Below, in pieces: positions 26,964 through 52,369 of a DNA stretch of 64,000 bases. Source of the DNA: an uncultured Methanosarcinales archaeon (GTDB taxonomy: Archaea; Nanobdellota; Nanobdellia; Woesearchaeales; JAGVZT01); contig CAYHAM010000005.1 in assembly GCA_964354685.1 (NCBI GenBank), positions 9,942 to 73,941 of the forward strand. Reading direction: 5' to 3'. The notes below the pieces were generated by a model. That model was not told the origin of the DNA and did not search any database. It saw nothing but the letters and a program-made list of their open reading frames with translations. The stretch's first letter is position 1. Every line of letters starts with the position of its first letter. The position numbers and the translations under genes were made by a program.

Positions 26964-27076
26964 AAAATGAAAAAGCCTCCGGAGGGAGTTGAACCCTCGA
27001 CCTGCGGATCACTTGCATAAGGGCTACAAGTTTCGGCTTTAGAAATCCGCCGCAATAGCCACTATGCTACGGAGGC
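26964..27076 (-). tRNA. tRNA-Arg (anticodon TCT) with a canonical-position intron (~30 nt)
   Basis: Reverse complement has GCCTCCG/CGGAGGC acceptor, GCGGA-TTTCTA-(intron)-A-TCCGC, and T-arm GAGGG-TTCAACT-CCCTC. Confidence 0.7.
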
Positions 27077-30329: not shown

Positions 30330-30413
30330 CGCCCCGGGCCAGGTTTGAACTGGCGACCTTGCGGTTTCTAGGCAAGCTAACAGCCGCACGCTCCACCACT
30401 AAGCTACCGGGGC
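30330..30413 (-). tRNA. tRNA-Asn (anticodon GTT) with a 12-nt intron at 37/38
   Basis: GCCCCGG/CCGGGGC acceptor. TGCGG-CTGTTA(intron)A-CCGCA. T-arm GCCAG-TTCAAAC-CTGGC. Confidence 0.65.
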
Positions 30414-44619: not shown

Positions 44620-44982
44620 TCAGGATTTGCCAAACTCTTCTATCCACATCTCAGCTATCTTTTGAATAGCTGAGGCAAAGTTTTTTGATAGTGAATATGT
44701 TCTTTTGTACATGTCATAGTTTACTATGCCCATCGCCTTCATTGGAGTTAGTATACGATCATAAAATTGACGCTTGTTGTATGAGATGTTTTTGCCTTCA
44801 TGCTTGATTTTGCCCTCATGCAAATCAGTGGCAAAGCTTGACATCTCTGCCTTGTTAACAGAGCCCTTGTGCTGTTTTATATATTTAATAAGGAGCTCTG
44901 CAACTACCTTTTGTTGCTCAGTTGCAAATATTACCTCATATACACTCTCTGGTAAGTTATACTGATCAAACAAAATAACCAT
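44620..44982 (-). CDS. Hypothetical protein (120 aa)
   Basis: ORF only. Confidence 0.3.
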   Translation of the reverse strand: MVILFDQYNLPESVYEVIFATEQQKVVAELLIKYIKQHKGSVNKAEMSSFATDLHEGKIKHEGKNISYNKRQFYDRILTPMKAMGIVNYDMYKRTYSLSKNFASAIQKIAEMWIEEFGKS

Positions 44983-47578: not shown

Positions 47579-48295
47579 CTAGTGCTTTGATCTTTCTTTC
47601 AGCTTTTTAGAAATATCTTCCTTTTTTGCCTTGAATTTTTCAGATAGAGTTTGTCTTTGTTCTTTTGTTATTTTGTCAATGTCCTTTGCAGTTTCCTTTG
47701 CAACTTTTATTGTCCTTCCAAGAATATTGTGGTCCCAGAGTACTCCACCCATGTCTTTTATTCTATGTACATTACCATAGCCGTTGAGGTAAACCATGTT
47801 CTCTAATCTTAGTCTGTATGTTGGCTTTGGCTTTTCATCTGGGTATCCAATTGGTAAGATAACCTGGGGGCGTGAGTTGTCTGGTATGCTAAGGGCTCTT
47901 TGTAGTAGGTTTTCCTCAAAAGCCCCCACCCAGCAGGTTGCTAGCCCAAGTGAGTGGGCTGTTAGTATCATATATGTGGCAGCAATAGCACAGTCCTGGA
48001 TTGAGTAAAGCCTTTCTCCCCTAACACCATATTGCCTTTTTATCTTGTCAATATCAGAGCATATTATTATTATGACTGGTGCCTTTGATATCCAATATTG
48101 TTTTAGAGCAGATTCTGCAACCTTTTTCCTGAGCTCTGGCTCTGTTATCACTATGAATTTCCAGTCCTGTACATTGCCAGCAGAGGGCGCAAGCCTACCT
48201 GCCTCTAGTATTTGACTAATCTTTTCCCATTCAACAGGTGAGTCTAGAAACTTTCTAACAGAATGTCGTTCGCTTATGATATCAAAAACATCCAT
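47579..48295 (-). CDS. Nitroreductase-family flavoprotein with C-terminal Lys-rich extension
   Basis: RHSVRKF, then PSAGNVQDWKFIV. Confidence 0.6.
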   Translation of the reverse strand: MDVFDIISERHSVRKFLDSPVEWEKISQILEAGRLAPSAGNVQDWKFIVITEPELRKKVAESALKQYWISKAPVIIIICSDIDKIKRQYGVRGERLYSIQDCAIAATYMILTAHSLGLATCWVGAFEENLLQRALSIPDNSRPQVILPIGYPDEKPKPTYRLRLENMVYLNGYGNVHRIKDMGGVLWDHNILGRTIKVAKETAKDIDKITKEQRQTLSEKFKAKKEDISKKLKERSKH

Positions 48296-48417
48296 AACAG
48301 GAAAATTATCTATCTACAATATATATTTTTTGGTTTTTAATCAGTATTTGGCTTTTTTTAATTATAAGTACTATAATTAATTGATTCAATAAAAAAGTTG
48401 AATAATTAAAAAACTCT

Positions 48418-48846
48418 CTATCCAATTCTTGGGAAGAGATATACTGTCATTATCAGCCCCACCAATAGGCCTATCAAAAACCCTGCTGCAAACTCTCTTA
48501 TGCCACAACCAATGTGCTCTTTTGGGCAAGCCTTTTCTCCAGATGAATGATGTATTTCCTTGATCCTTTTTCTTACCACTTTCAGAGCATCTTTTCTGTT
48601 CTTGGTCTCATGCAACATCAAACTTAGTTCTTTATCTTTGATAATATCTCCAACCCAGTTTGCAAAGTCGTTCCTATCTTCTGTAACATGGTGATTGTAG
48701 CTTTCATCACTCATTATCTCTAGTGCATCTGCCAATTCAAACAGGTTGTTTATCTCAATCTCTGTTTTGTGCAGCTTGAAGGTGTGCTCATTTGGCACAT
48801 CTCTTAGTAGGGGTACAGCATCGTGGCCATGTAGTTTTTCAGTCAT
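48418..48846 (-). CDS. Paralog 1 of a three-member family (conserved L..LA..LE...D..YxHHV...RNDFAxW domain) with C-terminal TM
   Basis: Aligns with 48851 and 49417 ORFs across about 65 aa. Confidence 0.45.
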   Translation of the reverse strand: MTEKLHGHDAVPLLRDVPNEHTFKLHKTEIEINNLFELADALEIMSDESYNHHVTEDRNDFANWVGDIIKDKELSLMLHETKNRKDALKVVRKRIKEIHHSSGEKACPKEHIGCGIREFAAGFLIGLLVGLIMTVYLFPRIG

Positions 48847-48850
48847 GTCC

Positions 48851-49420
48851 TTACCTCTTTTTTCTTTTTTTTATTTTTTTCTTCTTGATTTTTCTAACGA
48901 CTCTCTTTCCTATTTTTCTCTTTAGTCGTTTGCTTGGTTTTTTCTTAATGATCCTTCTTTCTTTTCTAATAGATTTTCTTTTTCTGATTGTTTTTTTAGG
49001 TTTTTTTACCCTTATTTTTTTCTTGGGCTTTTTCATTCCAACCTTTCTCTTTTTAACCTTTTTCTTTGGTCTCTTCTTAACCTTCTTTCTTTTCTTTGCC
49101 AATGTTTTGTATTTTGAAACAATTTCTCTTGATTCTTCAACCTTTTCTTTTATCTTCCTCACCAATGTTTCCTTTGTTTTTATCCTTGATATCTCTCTTG
49201 CAAAATCATTATCACCCACAACATCACGTACCCATGCGCTGAAATCATTTTTGTATTTGTTTACATGGTATCTAAACACATCGTCGTTTACTTCCTCCAA
49301 GGTATTGGCCAATGTGTTCAAGCTCCTTAGATCTTGATTTGTGCACAACCAAAAGCTTTGCTTAGTTGGAACAACGTTGAGCAAATTCTTTGCCCTAGAG
49401 AGATTTATCTTCTTACTCAT
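48851..49420 (-). CDS. Paralog 2, same conserved domain plus a ~100-aa poly-lysine/arginine tail
   Basis: RYHVNKYKNDFSAWV core. KKRKKVKKRPKKK tail. Confidence 0.45.
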   Translation of the reverse strand: MSKKINLSRAKNLLNVVPTKQSFWLCTNQDLRSLNTLANTLEEVNDDVFRYHVNKYKNDFSAWVRDVVGDNDFAREISRIKTKETLVRKIKEKVEESREIVSKYKTLAKKRKKVKKRPKKKVKKRKVGMKKPKKKIRVKKPKKTIRKRKSIRKERRIIKKKPSKRLKRKIGKRVVRKIKKKKIKKRKKR

Positions 49421-49794
49421 TTTATAAACCTCTTAATCATATGCTTCAAAATTTCAATTTGATGCCTTTCCTTTGAGTTAAGTTTTTGAAGCTTTTCAGC
49501 AAGCTCAACCTCTTTGAAGGTCTCCTTTGTCCAGGTTGCGAAATCATTCCTGAATTCATTTACATGGTGGTGGAAGATTTCATCAGTCATCTCGTCCATT
49601 GCTTCTACAAGTTCAAATAAATTTTTTAATGGCCTGCCATCAAGGAGTATAAAGTAGTGCTCTGGTTTTGCGTTTTTTAGTTTAACTCTTGTATTTTTCT
49701 CAGGAGATTTTTCTTTTACTCTCTTTTCAACTTCCTTAACTATTCTCTTCTTTACTTTAGCTTTTTTTATTTTTTCCTCTTTTTTCTTTGTCAT
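49417..49794 (-). CDS. Paralog 3, Lys-rich N-terminus plus the conserved domain
   Basis: HHHVNEFRNDFATW core. 4-nt overlap with paralog 2. Confidence 0.45.
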   Translation of the reverse strand: MTKKKEEKIKKAKVKKRIVKEVEKRVKEKSPEKNTRVKLKNAKPEHYFILLDGRPLKNLFELVEAMDEMTDEIFHHHVNEFRNDFATWTKETFKEVELAEKLQKLNSKERHQIEILKHMIKRFIK

Positions 49795-49804
49795 AAAACC
49801 ACCC

Positions 49805-51034
49805 CTAAGTCAAAGACTTTGCCTCTTCAAAGGCTTTGTTGGTTTCAACTTTTGAATTGTGTTCTTTGAGTCGTATAACCAAATCATTGAATATGTTCAT
49901 AAATGAAATAAAAGCATCATATGGGTTATCATACGGGTTAAAGTATTTGTGAACATCACCATCATTGAACCACTTTGTGCACATATAGTAAAAGTGGTCA
50001 CTAACTTGCAGTTTTCTCCAATCGGCGATTAACTCAGGATTGTTAGTTGCTAAGATTTGTTTTTCAATCATGTAGAGCTCTTTTATTGCTGATTGTTGCA
50101 TGCTATTGCCTAGCCATGCGCTCACATCTCTCTCAACATCTGCCCAAGAGACTATGTTGTGCACATCAAGCTCTGCAACTGTCTCATAATCCTTGATAAG
50201 CTCTGAGGGTGTTTTGAAGTTGTTGTCTGGGTGCCTTAGTAATTCAGGAGGTAAAGCGGACATAAACTTGAATATTCCGGTTGAGGGCCATTGGTGTTCA
50301 CCAAAGGTCTCATAGTCCATGAAGAGGTTTATTGTGTGGCCATTGCCATTTGCAGCATTCAACCATTGAACATATTTTGGAACAGTTAAAGGCCATTCTT
50401 GCCAGCTGCGTTCTGAAAATCTAAAGGCAATGTCATCACTTAGGCGATAGTTTTTGAGTAATAGCTTTATCTTTTCTGTTCCTTTTGGCCTGTATAGAAA
50501 GTTGGGTGAACGCCAACCAAGGATGTGATCTGCACCTTCTGCTAAAATACCTTTATATCCAAGCTTTTCTACAAGCATTGCAAGTTCATTGTTGTAGATG
50601 AGCTCGGTGTTTCTAAAAACCTGAGGGGTTTTTTTGAAGAGTTGTTGTATCCTTTGTCTGTGCATTTTTATTTGATTAACAAACTCCTCTTTTGAGTAAA
50701 GGAATGCAAGTGAATGGTAATATGTCTCATCCAGAATCTCAACATTACCTGTCTTTACCAGCTCTTGGAATGACTGGAGTACATCTGGAGCATGCTCTTC
50801 AAATTGTTCAAGTATTATTCCTGAGAATGAGAAGCTTGCTTTGAAGTTGTATCTGTTAATCAAGCTCATTATGATGTTATTCATCGGGATATAGCATTTT
50901 TTTGCTACTTTTTCTAGTATTGCAAGATTTTTGCTGGTGTCAAAGTAATTGCTGTTGTTGCCAACATCAAACACAGAGTATTTTCTAAGTCTATATGGCT
51001 GGTGAACATGGAAGTAGAAGCATACACTAACCAT
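49805..51034 (-). CDS. Glycoside hydrolase family 57 enzyme (alpha-amylase/glucanotransferase/branching-type)
   Basis: N-terminal FHVHQPYR signature of GH57. Confidence 0.65.
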   Translation of the reverse strand: MVSVCFYFHVHQPYRLRKYSVFDVGNNSNYFDTSKNLAILEKVAKKCYIPMNNIIMSLINRYNFKASFSFSGIILEQFEEHAPDVLQSFQELVKTGNVEILDETYYHSLAFLYSKEEFVNQIKMHRQRIQQLFKKTPQVFRNTELIYNNELAMLVEKLGYKGILAEGADHILGWRSPNFLYRPKGTEKIKLLLKNYRLSDDIAFRFSERSWQEWPLTVPKYVQWLNAANGNGHTINLFMDYETFGEHQWPSTGIFKFMSALPPELLRHPDNNFKTPSELIKDYETVAELDVHNIVSWADVERDVSAWLGNSMQQSAIKELYMIEKQILATNNPELIADWRKLQVSDHFYYMCTKWFNDGDVHKYFNPYDNPYDAFISFMNIFNDLVIRLKEHNSKVETNKAFEEAKSLT

Positions 51035-52223
51035 TGTTCATCACCAACATATGGTTGTAAACATCAATGCATTTTCTTGCTGGCTCATTCCAACCAATTC
51101 CTGTTACTTCAAATGATGCATTCTCCATGAGTGTGTGTGCAAGTGAGGGGTATTTTAAAACACACACTATCTTGTTTGTTAGTTCATTTATGTCCCAGAA
51201 GTCAACTTTCAAGCAGTTTTTGATGACCTCTGAAACTCCAGATTGCTTTGAGATAATTACTGGAGTCCCATTTGCCATTGCCTCTAGAGGTGTTATACCA
51301 AATGGTTCTGATACAGATGGCATCACATAAACATCTGCCATTCTATACACTCTGTCAACATCCTTTCCACGTAAAAACCCTGTGAATAAAACATTTTTGC
51401 TTAGGCCAAGCTCTGCCACTTTGTTTATGATATAAGACTCCATGTCACCAGAGCCTGTAATAACAAACTTCACGTTTGGCATTTGTTCAAGAACCTTTTT
51501 TGCAGCATAGATAAAGTAATCTGGGCCTTTTTGAACAGTGATTCTTCCTAAGAACAAAACTATCTTGTCCTCTTTTTTTATGCCAAAGTCATCTTCAATT
51601 GAATAATTATTTATTTCAACAGCATTGTGAACAACATTTATCTTTTCTGGGTTAATTCCATAGTGGGTTGTTATCTTGTTTTTTGTGAAGTTGCTTACTG
51701 CTATTATTGAATCTGCCTTGTGCATGCCCATTTTCTCAACCTCATAGACAATCTGGTTCACATTGTTGTTAGCTGTCCTATCAAACTCAGTTGCATGAAC
51801 ATGTATTACTAGTGGTTTGTTGGATACTGTTTTTGCATTTATTCCTGCTTGGAATGTCATCCAGTCATGGGCGTGTATTACATCAAAGTCTTCTTGCATT
51901 GCGATTTCAGCTACTCTTTTTGAAAATCTGTAGACCTCTTTGAAGAGATCATAGCCATACATTGAGGATGTGCTTCTTAAGAATGTTTTTTGATAGCCCT
52001 CTGATGTCATGTAACCTCTAATCGGAGAGTCTACTGGAACTATCTTGATGTTTGCTCCTATTAGCTTTACAAACTCTGCCTGTATATTATCCCTGAGCGT
52101 AGGTAATACAAAGGTTATGTCCACTCCTTGGTTTGAAAGGCCTTTTGTGAGGCCATAACAGGCAGTTCCTAAGCCACCTGTTGAATAGGGCGGGAACTCC
52201 CACCCAAGCATTAACACTTTCAC
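51027..52223 (-). CDS. Glycogen-synthase-like glycosyltransferase (GT4/GT5, GlgA-type)
   Basis: KVLMLGWEFPPYSTGGLG N-terminus. C-terminal E-x7-E-type region. Confidence 0.65.
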   Translation of the reverse strand: MKVLMLGWEFPPYSTGGLGTACYGLTKGLSNQGVDITFVLPTLRDNIQAEFVKLIGANIKIVPVDSPIRGYMTSEGYQKTFLRSTSSMYGYDLFKEVYRFSKRVAEIAMQEDFDVIHAHDWMTFQAGINAKTVSNKPLVIHVHATEFDRTANNNVNQIVYEVEKMGMHKADSIIAVSNFTKNKITTHYGINPEKINVVHNAVEINNYSIEDDFGIKKEDKIVLFLGRITVQKGPDYFIYAAKKVLEQMPNVKFVITGSGDMESYIINKVAELGLSKNVLFTGFLRGKDVDRVYRMADVYVMPSVSEPFGITPLEAMANGTPVIISKQSGVSEVIKNCLKVDFWDINELTNKIVCVLKYPSLAHTLMENASFEVTGIGWNEPARKCIDVYNHMLVMNNG

Positions 52224-52369
52224 TCTATCGCCTCTCTTTTAGAGTTATAACTACTTTATTTAAGAAACAGAACTAGCTCATATATAATATTTGTTTATAA
52301 CTAATAAGTGACACAGTTATATTTAAGTTATATATAAAGATAAACAAGGGTCATTAATAAATGTTTGGG

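What the first reader, a model, noticed from the sequence alone, without database searches (positions are those of the whole stretch)
48418..49794. Tandem trio of paralogs with a novel ~65-aa domain and poly-lysine tails, next to glycogen genes
Three consecutive minus-strand ORFs share a conserved core L(F/N)ELxxxLExxxDxx(Y/F)xxHVxxx(R/K)NDF(A/S)xW that I cannot assign to a known family. Each carries a different appendage. One has a C-terminal TM helix. One has a ~100-aa K/R-rich tail (KKRKKVKKRPKKK...), resembling linker-histone or nucleic-acid-binding tails. One has a Lys-rich N-terminus. They are coupled by 4-nt overlaps and sit immediately upstream of GH57, GlgA and HAD genes.
Basis: seen in the sequence. 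Interest (0 to 1): 0.55.

Follow-up and report, generated by a model that had tools for sequence, protein, structure and literature searches.

The report
OrfY-fold protein trio beside glycogen genes
Three small neighbouring archaeal genes share a domain that is already catalogued, with a solved structure but no known function (OrfY/DUF5752); one copy carries a strongly positive tail, one a shorter basic arm and one a membrane anchor, so they probably act together as a charge-binding, partly membrane-fixed set linked to sugar-storage genes.

Summary
The three minus-strand ORFs are real, conserved genes. The genome looks like a Woesearchaeota (DPANN) archaeon.

- **The core is not novel.** It matches Pfam DUF5752. 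By sequence (E 1.9e-9) and by predicted fold it matches only PDB 4CSO, OrfY of Thermoproteus tenax. Each protein carries one of OrfY's two repeats.
- **Three orthologous lines.** A has an N-terminal basic arm, B a C-terminal polycationic tail, and C a C-terminal membrane helix.
- **The tail is selected, not AT drift.** Its K+R content stays at 42-81%, with almost no acidic residues, across genomes of 32-52% GC. Arg replaces Lys as GC rises.
- **The link to glucan genes recurs.** A GlgA-like transferase and GH57 are followed by two or three such genes in six arrangements with different flanks. Canonical OrfY overlaps trehalose synthase TreT by 4 nt.
- **B often sits elsewhere.** In 20 of 26 species-level genomes, B alone lies just upstream of L21e-RpoF.

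Function is untested. My best guess is that the domains pair, the basic arms bind nucleic acid, and C fixes part of the set to the membrane. This is a new variant of a known but uncharacterised family, of moderate interest.

The parts
49417..49794 (-). Gene A: 125-aa single-domain OrfY/DUF5752-like protein. The N-terminal basic arm is aa 1-40 (49675-49794, net +13) and the core domain is aa 41-125 (49420-49674).
   Evidence: ORF. Pfam DUF5752 E 3.9e-8, 33.3 bits, above the 23-bit cut-off. 4CSO E 9e-4 with the single sequence. Orthologues P0001-P0010, P0020. Charge.
48851..49420 (-). Gene B: 189-aa OrfY/DUF5752-like protein. The core plus a long helix is aa 1-104 (49109-49420). The polycationic tail is aa 105-189 (48854-49108; 40 K + 15 R among the 81 residues counted as tail; net +55, pI 12).
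   Evidence: E 2e-6, 27.8 bits; AF2 pLDDT 92 and 95.8. 93 of 123 family members examined (120 hits plus the window's three) are of this type.
48418..48846 (-). Gene C: 142-aa OrfY/DUF5752-like protein, tail-anchored. The core is aa 1-104 (48535-48846). The C-terminal hydrophobic helix is aa ~118-140 (48427-48495).
   Evidence: E 1.1e-4, 22.1 bits, just under the cut-off; 12 orthologues with the same C-terminal helix; family profile E 9.3e-35.
49805..51034 (-). GH57 glycoside hydrolase. It stops 10 nt before gene A.
   Evidence: Pfam Glyco_hydro_57 E 1.4e-77. Conserved next to OrfY-like genes in L004-L007, L022, L030, L036-L039, L041.
51027..52223 (-). GlgA-like GT-B glucosyltransferase (GT4/GT5). 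It overlaps GH57 by 8 nt.
   Evidence: Pfam Glycos_transf_1 7.4e-40 and Glyco_transf_5 2.8e-23. NCBIfam glgA_Coryne 2e-42, below its cut-off.
52224..52369 (-). AT-rich intergenic region with TATA-like boxes. It is the probable promoter of the GlgA-GH57-A-B-C unit.
   Evidence: Read directly from the sequence. Inferred, not tested.
48391..48413 (-). Two T6 runs just after the stop of gene C, a probable archaeal oligo-T terminator.
   Evidence: Read from the sequence. Inferred.

Best explanation
The three genes encode single-domain members of the OrfY/DUF5752 fold family. They are very probably co-transcribed with the GlgA-like glucosyltransferase and GH57.

Proposed mechanism:
- The OrfY-like domain is a pairing module. 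It occurs twice in OrfY itself and twice in about 40% of family representatives. A, B and C would therefore form homo- or heterodimers.
- The domain cores are neutral to acidic, so polyanion binding comes from the appendages. These are B's +55 tail and A's +13 arm, whose most likely target is nucleic acid.
- C's tail anchor holds part of the set at the cytoplasmic face of the membrane.

Together the set would be a small architectural or regulatory nucleic-acid-binding module that is historically tied to alpha-glucan genes. In most Woesearchaeota, B alone has become a stand-alone gene just upstream of the L21e-RpoF cluster.

What is shown: gene reality, family membership, fold, selection on tail charge, and the two recurrent neighbourhoods. 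What is inferred: dimerisation, nucleic-acid binding, membrane tethering, and any regulatory role.
For: **Family and fold**
- Pfam DUF5752 hits.
- The family profile hits 4CSO OrfY at E 1.9e-9, with two repeats in OrfY.
- The AF2 core model has pLDDT 95.8. Its only PDB fold matches are 4CSO chains, at prob 0.80-0.91, TM 0.53-0.55, rmsd 3.1-3.4 A.

**Pairing**
- 59 of 148 top family representatives carry two domains and 3 carry three.
- GH57-linked loci always encode at least two single-domain genes side by side.
- Fused chains exist: P0122 and P0135 combine two domains, K-rich linkers and a C-terminal TM helix. L041 972-1595 combines a domain, a ~90-aa K-rich linker and a TM helix, right after GH57 and an A-like gene.

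**Tail under selection**
- K+R is 42-81% and D+E about 0 in 27 loci spanning GC 0.32-0.52.
- R/(K+R) rises with GC (Spearman 0.60, p 9e-4).
- Composition is K 37.5, R 22.9, A 10, S 6, P 3.7%.
- The cores are not basic: A -2, C -6, canonical OrfY -8.

**Information-processing context**
- B lies upstream of, and on the same strand as, L21e-RpoF(-DUF655) in 20 of 26 species-level loci. The gap is under 100 nt in 16 of them.
- The domain is fused to KaiC-type and HerA/FtsK-type ATPases.

**Operon signals**
- 10-nt, -4-nt and +4-nt junctions, GAGG ribosome-binding sites, and a terminal T-run.
Against: - No DNA- or RNA-binding fold is detectable, and no experiment exists.
- The 'transcription factor' label on 4CSO is the depositors' wording. 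I could not find supporting data.
- Canonical OrfY is acidic and has no basic arm, so nucleic-acid binding is not a family-wide property.
- The most consistent context of the family is a GT-B glucosyltransferase (TreT, GlgA/GH57 here). That could instead point to a direct role in sugar metabolism.
- In L041 the basic segment is a linker between the domain and the membrane helix. That fits a spacer or a lipid-binding role as well as it fits nucleic-acid binding.
- Dimerisation was not modelled, because the structure jobs were exhausted.
Confidence: 0.4

Rival explanations
1. The trio are accessory or regulatory subunits of the sugar enzymes. The OrfY-like domain binds the co-encoded GT-B glucosyltransferase or GH57, or a sugar or sugar-nucleotide. 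C places alpha-glucan synthesis at the membrane. The basic arms play a secondary role.
For: - Canonical full-length OrfY (DUF5752 E ~1e-62) overlaps the start of TreT by 4 nt in L033/L034 and L035. L035 also has a HAD hydrolase after TreT.
- GlgA-GH57 is followed by 2-3 OrfY-like genes in six arrangements with different flanks, at GH57 identity 64-85%.
- An NJ tree places the L21e-linked B genes inside GH57-linked B genes. That suggests the GH57 position is ancestral (this is weak evidence).
- The signature residues H, N, D, F and W are of kinds common in sugar-binding sites (inference only).
Against: - B is kept in 20 species-level genomes with no GH57 or GlgA within 10 kb. GH57 is reported in all nine Woesearchaeota MAGs of one study (PMC11606122), so B is not tied to it.
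- A +55 tail has no obvious use on a neutral glucan.
- Within the window's clade the synteny spans more than 15 kb including PolB and XPD, so adjacency there is partly plain inheritance.
Confidence: 0.25
2. B, and perhaps A, is an RNA- or ribosome-associated protein. It would be a lineage-specific ribosomal-type protein or RNA chaperone, and its basic tail contacts rRNA.
For: - B sits just upstream of and co-oriented with ribosomal protein L21e and RpoF in 20 of 26 loci, mostly 36-83 nt away.
- In L036 the OrfY-like pair is followed by RpoK and S17e.
- Long K/R extensions are typical of ribosomal proteins (general knowledge).
Against: - Tail length varies from 16 to 126 aa, which is unusual for a fixed ribosomal contact.
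- B moves between loci.
- The C paralogue is membrane-anchored.
- No similarity to any ribosomal family was found.
Confidence: 0.15
3. One reading: a previously unknown domain family, with tails that bind nucleic acid or polyglucan.
For: - The function is indeed unknown.
- No paper in the library mentions DUF5752.
Against: - The domain is catalogued as PF19027 and has a solved relative, 4CSO.
- Nothing supports polyglucan binding.
Confidence: 0.03
4. The tails, or the ORFs themselves, are low-complexity artefacts of an AT-rich genome.
For: - The window has 35% GC.
- The tail is encoded by AAA/AAG/AGA-rich DNA.
- An antisense shadow ORF exists at 48792-49337.
Against: - The basic tail persists up to 52% GC, with Arg replacing Lys and almost no acidic residues.
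- 73 of 86 tails end with at least 3 K/R in the last 4 residues.
- There are three conserved orthologous lines.
Confidence: 0.01

Closest known systems
OrfY of Thermoproteus tenax (PDB 4CSO) / Pfam PF19027 DUF5752
   Same: - Same sequence signature: F-x-L ... L..L ... HHV ... NDF..W.
- Same fold. It is the only PDB fold match (prob 0.8-0.9, TM 0.53-0.55).
- It is also encoded tightly next to a GT-B glucosyltransferase.
   Different: - OrfY has two repeats in one 216-aa acidic chain, with an 11-residue insertion before NDF and no appendages.
- The window proteins have one repeat each (Pfam profile positions ~16-97 of 208), plus a basic arm, a polycationic tail or a membrane helix.
- The partner enzymes are a GlgA-like transferase and GH57, not TreT.
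- The function of OrfY itself is not established.
Linker histone H1 and bacterial H1-like or tail-bearing nucleoid proteins (Chlamydia Hc1, mycobacterial Hlp/MDP1)
   Same: The architecture matches: a small globular domain plus a long, disordered, K/R/A/P/S-rich tail with almost no acidic residues. This is general knowledge about those families.
   Different: - The globular domain is not a winged helix or an HU fold. There was no Pfam hit and no fold match.
- DNA binding is untested.
Tail-anchored membrane adaptors, for example the eukaryotic glycogen-to-membrane tether Stbd1 (analogy only)
   Same: Gene C has a cytoplasmic domain followed by a single terminal membrane helix, and it sits next to glucan-metabolism genes.
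   Different: - There is no carbohydrate-binding module.
- There is no homology. The resemblance comes from memory and is only a lead.

Membership tests
Pfam PF19027 DUF5752 (OrfY family) | Score at or above the Pfam gathering threshold (23 bits) | tested here: met
   A scores 33.3 bits and B 27.8 bits, both above the threshold. C scores 22.1 bits, just below. C scores E 9.3e-35 against a profile of its own subfamily, which in turn hits OrfY.
Pfam PF19027 DUF5752 (OrfY family) | Fold shared with the solved member 4CSO | tested here: met
   Foldseek with the AF2 core model (pLDDT 95.8) gave 4CSO chains D, B and A as the top three, at prob 0.80-0.91, TM(query) 0.53-0.55 and rmsd 3.1-3.4 A over 65-66 columns. 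Every other match had prob 0.12 or lower. The longer model that includes the C-terminal helix missed 4CSO.
Pfam PF19027 DUF5752 (OrfY family) | Full-length architecture of two repeats (208-position model) | tested here: not met
   The window proteins cover only profile positions ~16-97. Canonical OrfY homologues cover 2-208 with two repeats. The window proteins are therefore half-length, single-repeat relatives.
Pfam PF19027 DUF5752 (OrfY family) | Encoded next to a GT-B sugar-nucleotide glucosyltransferase | tested here: met
   OrfY-TreT overlap by 4 nt in L033, L034 and L035. In the window the order is GlgA-like GT, GH57, A, B, C. This is not a formal defining feature of the Pfam family.
Linker histone H1 / H5 | Winged-helix globular domain (Pfam Linker_histone) | tested here: not met
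   No such Pfam hit at E up to 1 and no winged-helix fold match.
Linker histone H1 / H5 | Long Lys-rich disordered tail | tested here: met
   B's tail has net charge +55 over 85 aa. Across 86 orthologues the tail composition is K 37.5, R 22.9, A 10%.
Sequence-specific transcription factor (the label on 4CSO) | Demonstrated DNA binding or a recognisable DNA-binding fold | not testable with these tools
   No HTH, RHH or zinc-ribbon match. I found no literature that supports the label.
Anti-phage defence or viral protein families | Significant match in PADLOC or PHROGs | tested here: not met
   PADLOC gave only weak hits of 16-17 bits. PHROGs gave none.

The most novel reading that the evidence does not exclude
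The OrfY fold plus a polycationic tail (line B) is a previously unrecognised, lineage-wide chromatin or nucleoid protein of Woesearchaeota, an H1-like architecture built on a different fold. With its partners A and C it forms a membrane-anchored nucleic-acid tether. That tether arose inside an alpha-glucan gene cluster and couples storage-sugar metabolism to genome organisation or expression.
Probability: 0.15. Interest if true: 0.7.

Novelty: new variant of a known kind. Interest (0 to 1): 0.42.

Why it matters
- **A large family with no known function.** DUF5752/OrfY has a solved structure but no assigned function and essentially no literature. The exhaustive search found about 5,000 clusters at 50% identity. 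The best-scoring ones were traced mainly to Woesearchaeota (DPANN) assemblies.
- **Testable handles.** This locus shows the family in its simplest form: one domain per gene, each with a different targeting appendage. The handles are whether the domains pair, whether the +55 tail binds DNA or RNA, and whether the set touches GlgA, GH57 or TreT.
- **Possible payoff.** If B is a nucleoid or RNA-binding protein, it would add a new architectural protein class for DPANN archaea. If it acts on the glucosyltransferases, it would explain the unexplained OrfY gene of the archaeal trehalose operon.

Tried and rejected
- **Literature.** DUF5752, OrfY and 4CSO gave nothing usable. The 2008 TreT paper and the CASP10 paper are not held. 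The CASP11 paper has no mention. From memory, orfY was described as the ORF upstream of treT in T. tenax (Kouril et al. 2008, Arch Microbiol 190:355). I replaced that memory with a direct check in metagenome loci.
- **Homologue searches that failed.** A search with the 4CSO fragment found no candidates, and one with a diverse alignment found only 7. Both searches yielded little or nothing. This biases the 26 loci towards B.
- **Fold search.** Foldseek with the 110-aa model including the long helix found nothing.
- **Other libraries.** NCBIfam, PADLOC and PHROGs gave no meaningful hits. Rfam found only two tRNAs elsewhere in the window.
- **Rejected readings.** AT-drift artefact. HAD as part of the module. 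Polyglucan binding, for which there is no carbohydrate-binding module and no evidence.

Full report
**1. What is in the sequence**

Three minus-strand ORFs lie at 49417-49794 (125 aa, 'A'), 48851-49420 (189 aa, 'B') and 48418-48846 (142 aa, 'C'). They share a ~90-aa core with invariant F, L, H-V, N-D-F and W.

- A and B overlap by 4 nt (ATGA).
- B and C are separated by a 4-nt spacer.
- GH57 stops 10 nt before A, and the GlgA-like gene overlaps GH57 by 8 nt.
- Each small gene has a GAGG-type ribosome-binding site.
- Two T6 runs follow C.
- An AT-rich, TATA-like intergenic region precedes the GlgA-like gene.

Charge by region:

| Region | Net charge |
|---|---|
| A arm (aa 1-40) | +13 |
| A core | -2 |
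| B core (aa 1-104) | +5 |
| B tail (aa 105-189) | +55 |
| C core | -6 |

C ends in a hydrophobic helix at aa ~118-140. With no signal peptide evident by eye and the helix at the extreme C-terminus, C reads as a tail-anchored protein whose domain faces the cytoplasm (inference).

**2. The domain is known**

- Pfam assigns all three to PF19027 DUF5752: A at 33.3 bits, B at 27.8, C at 22.1, against a cut-off of 23. The matches cover only the first half of the 208-position model.
- A profile of 34 family cores hits one solved structure, 4CSO 'OrfY protein, transcription factor' of Thermoproteus tenax, at E 1.9e-9. It matches both repeats of OrfY. Gene A alone hits it at E 9e-4.
- AlphaFold2 models are confident: pLDDT 92.2 for B aa 1-110 and 95.8 for the core aa 5-84. 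The fold is a short beta-hairpin packed against five helices, followed by one long helix.
- Foldseek against the PDB with the core model returns the 4CSO chains as its only credible matches, at prob 0.80-0.91, TM 0.53-0.55 and rmsd 3.1-3.4 A. No other fold appears. The longer model found nothing.

So 'novel domain' is refuted, but the family has no established function. No paper in the library mentions DUF5752 or describes OrfY.

**3. Family size and shapes**

- The word-indexed search found 125 small proteins. Every one that carries a source name is from a Woesearchaeota (or, in one case, Nanoarchaeota) assembly.
- They fall into three orthologous lines matching A, B and C. Among the 120 listed hits plus the window's own three, the counts are 9, 93 and 12, with 9 unclassified. 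A neighbour-joining tree of 56 domains recovers the three lines.
- The exhaustive profile search found 5,072 clusters at E ≤ 1e-3 and 3,672 at E ≤ 1e-10.
- Among the best 148, 86 have one domain, 59 have two and 3 have three. 26 have a hydrophobic helix and 18 have a strongly basic segment.
- Fusions include KaiC-type and HerA/FtsK-type ATPases.
- Single chains also exist that combine two domains, K-rich linkers and a C-terminal membrane helix (P0122, P0135).

**4. The tail is selected**

- In 27 loci spanning 32-52% GC, the B tail is 16-126 aa long. It has 42-81% K+R and nearly no D/E.
- The Arg share rises with GC (Spearman 0.60, p 9e-4).
- Pooled composition is K 37.5, R 22.9, A 10, S 6, P 3.7%. 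73 of 86 tails end in a K/R cluster.

Charge is conserved while sequence and length are not. That is the behaviour of a functional polycationic tail, not of AT drift.

**5. Neighbourhoods**

*(a) GH57-linked loci.* The window's block (EamA, Zn-ribbon, PolB, GlgA, GH57, A, B, C, nitroreductase, XPD helicase) recurs in close relatives, complete in L030 and in part in the shorter loci: L004-L007, L030-L032, L039. On its own that could be plain inheritance. The core arrangement also recurs with different flanks, at GH57 identity 64-77%:

| Locus | Arrangement |
|---|---|
| L038 | GlgA, GH57, A, B, C, then an HD-domain gene |
| L022 | GH57, a 608-aa gene (metallophosphatase-like by eye), B, C |
| L037 | HTH_45, GlgA, GH57, B-like, C |
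| L036 | GlgA, GH57, a toxin-antitoxin insert, A-like, short B-like, RpoK, S17e |
| L041 | GH57, A-like, then one chain that is B and C fused |

HAD is not conserved in these loci.

*(b) L21e-linked loci.* In 20 of the 26 species-level genome loci found with the B pattern, B is alone. It lies upstream of, and on the same strand as, ribosomal protein L21e and RpoF/Rpb4 (followed by DUF655 where the locus reaches that far). IleRS lies on the opposite strand upstream in the 17 of these loci whose sequence reaches it. The gap to L21e is under 100 nt in 16 of them, and no GH57 or GlgA lies within 10 kb.

GH57 was reported in all nine Woesearchaeota MAGs of one study (PMC11606122). B is therefore probably unlinked from GH57 in those genomes rather than outliving its loss.

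In the tree the L21e-linked B genes form one clade nested among GH57-linked B genes. This hints that the GH57 position is older (weak evidence from an NJ tree of a short domain with midpoint rooting).

*(c) Canonical OrfY.* Three hot-spring metagenome loci carry full-length DUF5752 genes, 67-82% identical to the 4CSO fragment and scoring Pfam E ~1e-62. Each stop overlaps by 4 nt the start of trehalose synthase TreT (TreT_GT1 plus Glycos_transf_1). One locus has a HAD hydrolase next.

The family is thus tied to GT-B glucosyltransferase genes in two very distant archaeal lineages.

**6. Interpretation**

Shown:
- The genes are real.
- They belong to the OrfY family and share its fold.
- There are three orthologous lines.
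- Tail charge is under selection.
- There are two recurrent contexts.

Inferred:
- The domain pairs. The basis is the two repeats in OrfY, the many tandem members, the fact that at least two single-domain genes lie side by side at GH57 loci, and the fused chains.
- The basic arms bind a polyanion, most likely nucleic acid. The basis is a +55 tail with H1-like composition, the L21e-RpoF context, and the ATPase fusions.
- C anchors part of the set to the membrane.

The main rival is a direct accessory role on the glucosyltransferase or GH57. It is favoured by the TreT and GlgA-GH57 contexts and by the acidity of canonical OrfY. It is disfavoured by B's independent life at the L21e locus and by the lack of any use for such a charge on a neutral glucan.

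A ribosome- or RNA-associated role for B is the second rival. Artefact readings are excluded.

I put family membership at about 0.9 and the proposed mechanism at about 0.3-0.4.

**7. Verdict**

The claim of a novel domain is wrong.

What remains is a clean, minimal example of an uncharacterised but large archaeal domain family with suggestive appendages and contexts. It is a new variant of a known kind, of moderate interest.

Noticed in passing
wider family, e.g. P0125, P0131, P0139: A 390-540-aa subfamily has a distinctive layout. It begins MVKK(L/F)ISGLLKKK and carries one to three acidic 'D(V/I)PDELP(P/S)L' motifs. A coiled coil follows, then two C-terminal OrfY-like domains. It may be an adaptor or scaffold of unknown role.
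   Followed up: no
P0127, P0133, P0168: The OrfY-like domain is fused to KaiC-type ATPases. It is also fused to a HerA/FtsK-type ATPase that carries CarboxypepD_reg domains.
   Followed up: partly
L041 972-1595: A single 207-aa chain combines an OrfY-like domain, a ~90-aa K-rich linker and a C-terminal membrane helix. That is B and C fused. It lies directly after GH57 and an A-like gene.
   Followed up: yes
L008-L029: The order IleRS (opposite strand), B, L21e, RpoF/Rpb4 (with DUF655 following in about half of the loci) is conserved across Woesearchaeota whose IleRS is only ~35% identical. Toxin-antitoxin cassettes (PIN/MazE) are inserted between B and L21e in L001/L023.
   Followed up: partly
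window 48792-49337 (+): A 181-aa Phe/Leu-rich ORF is the antisense shadow of B's Lys-rich tail. It is not a gene.
   Followed up: yes
window 44620-44982 (-): A 120-aa ORF of unknown function keeps the same relative position, a few genes beyond the trio. This is shown by sequence in L041 (136 aa) and inferred from 120-122-aa genes at the matching position in L030, L032 and L039.
   Followed up: no
window 26974-27076 (-) and 30330-30413 (-): Two tRNA genes. The first spans 103 nt and probably carries an intron.
   Followed up: no
window 47579-48295 (-): The nitroreductase downstream of the trio has a Lys-rich C-terminal extension of about 40 aa. This gene is conserved next to C in L030, L032 and L039.
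   Followed up: no
L035 1110-2314; L036 1592-2789: TreT in L035 and the GlgA-like gene in L036 are each split into two ORFs. This is either a frameshift or an assembly error.
   Followed up: no
window 48851-49420, aa 20-91: B gives a weak PADLOC hit to a Type I methyltransferase model (positions 67-140 of 661, E 3e-4, 17 bits). It is probably noise. It could mean that some such enzymes carry a related N-terminal module.
   Followed up: no
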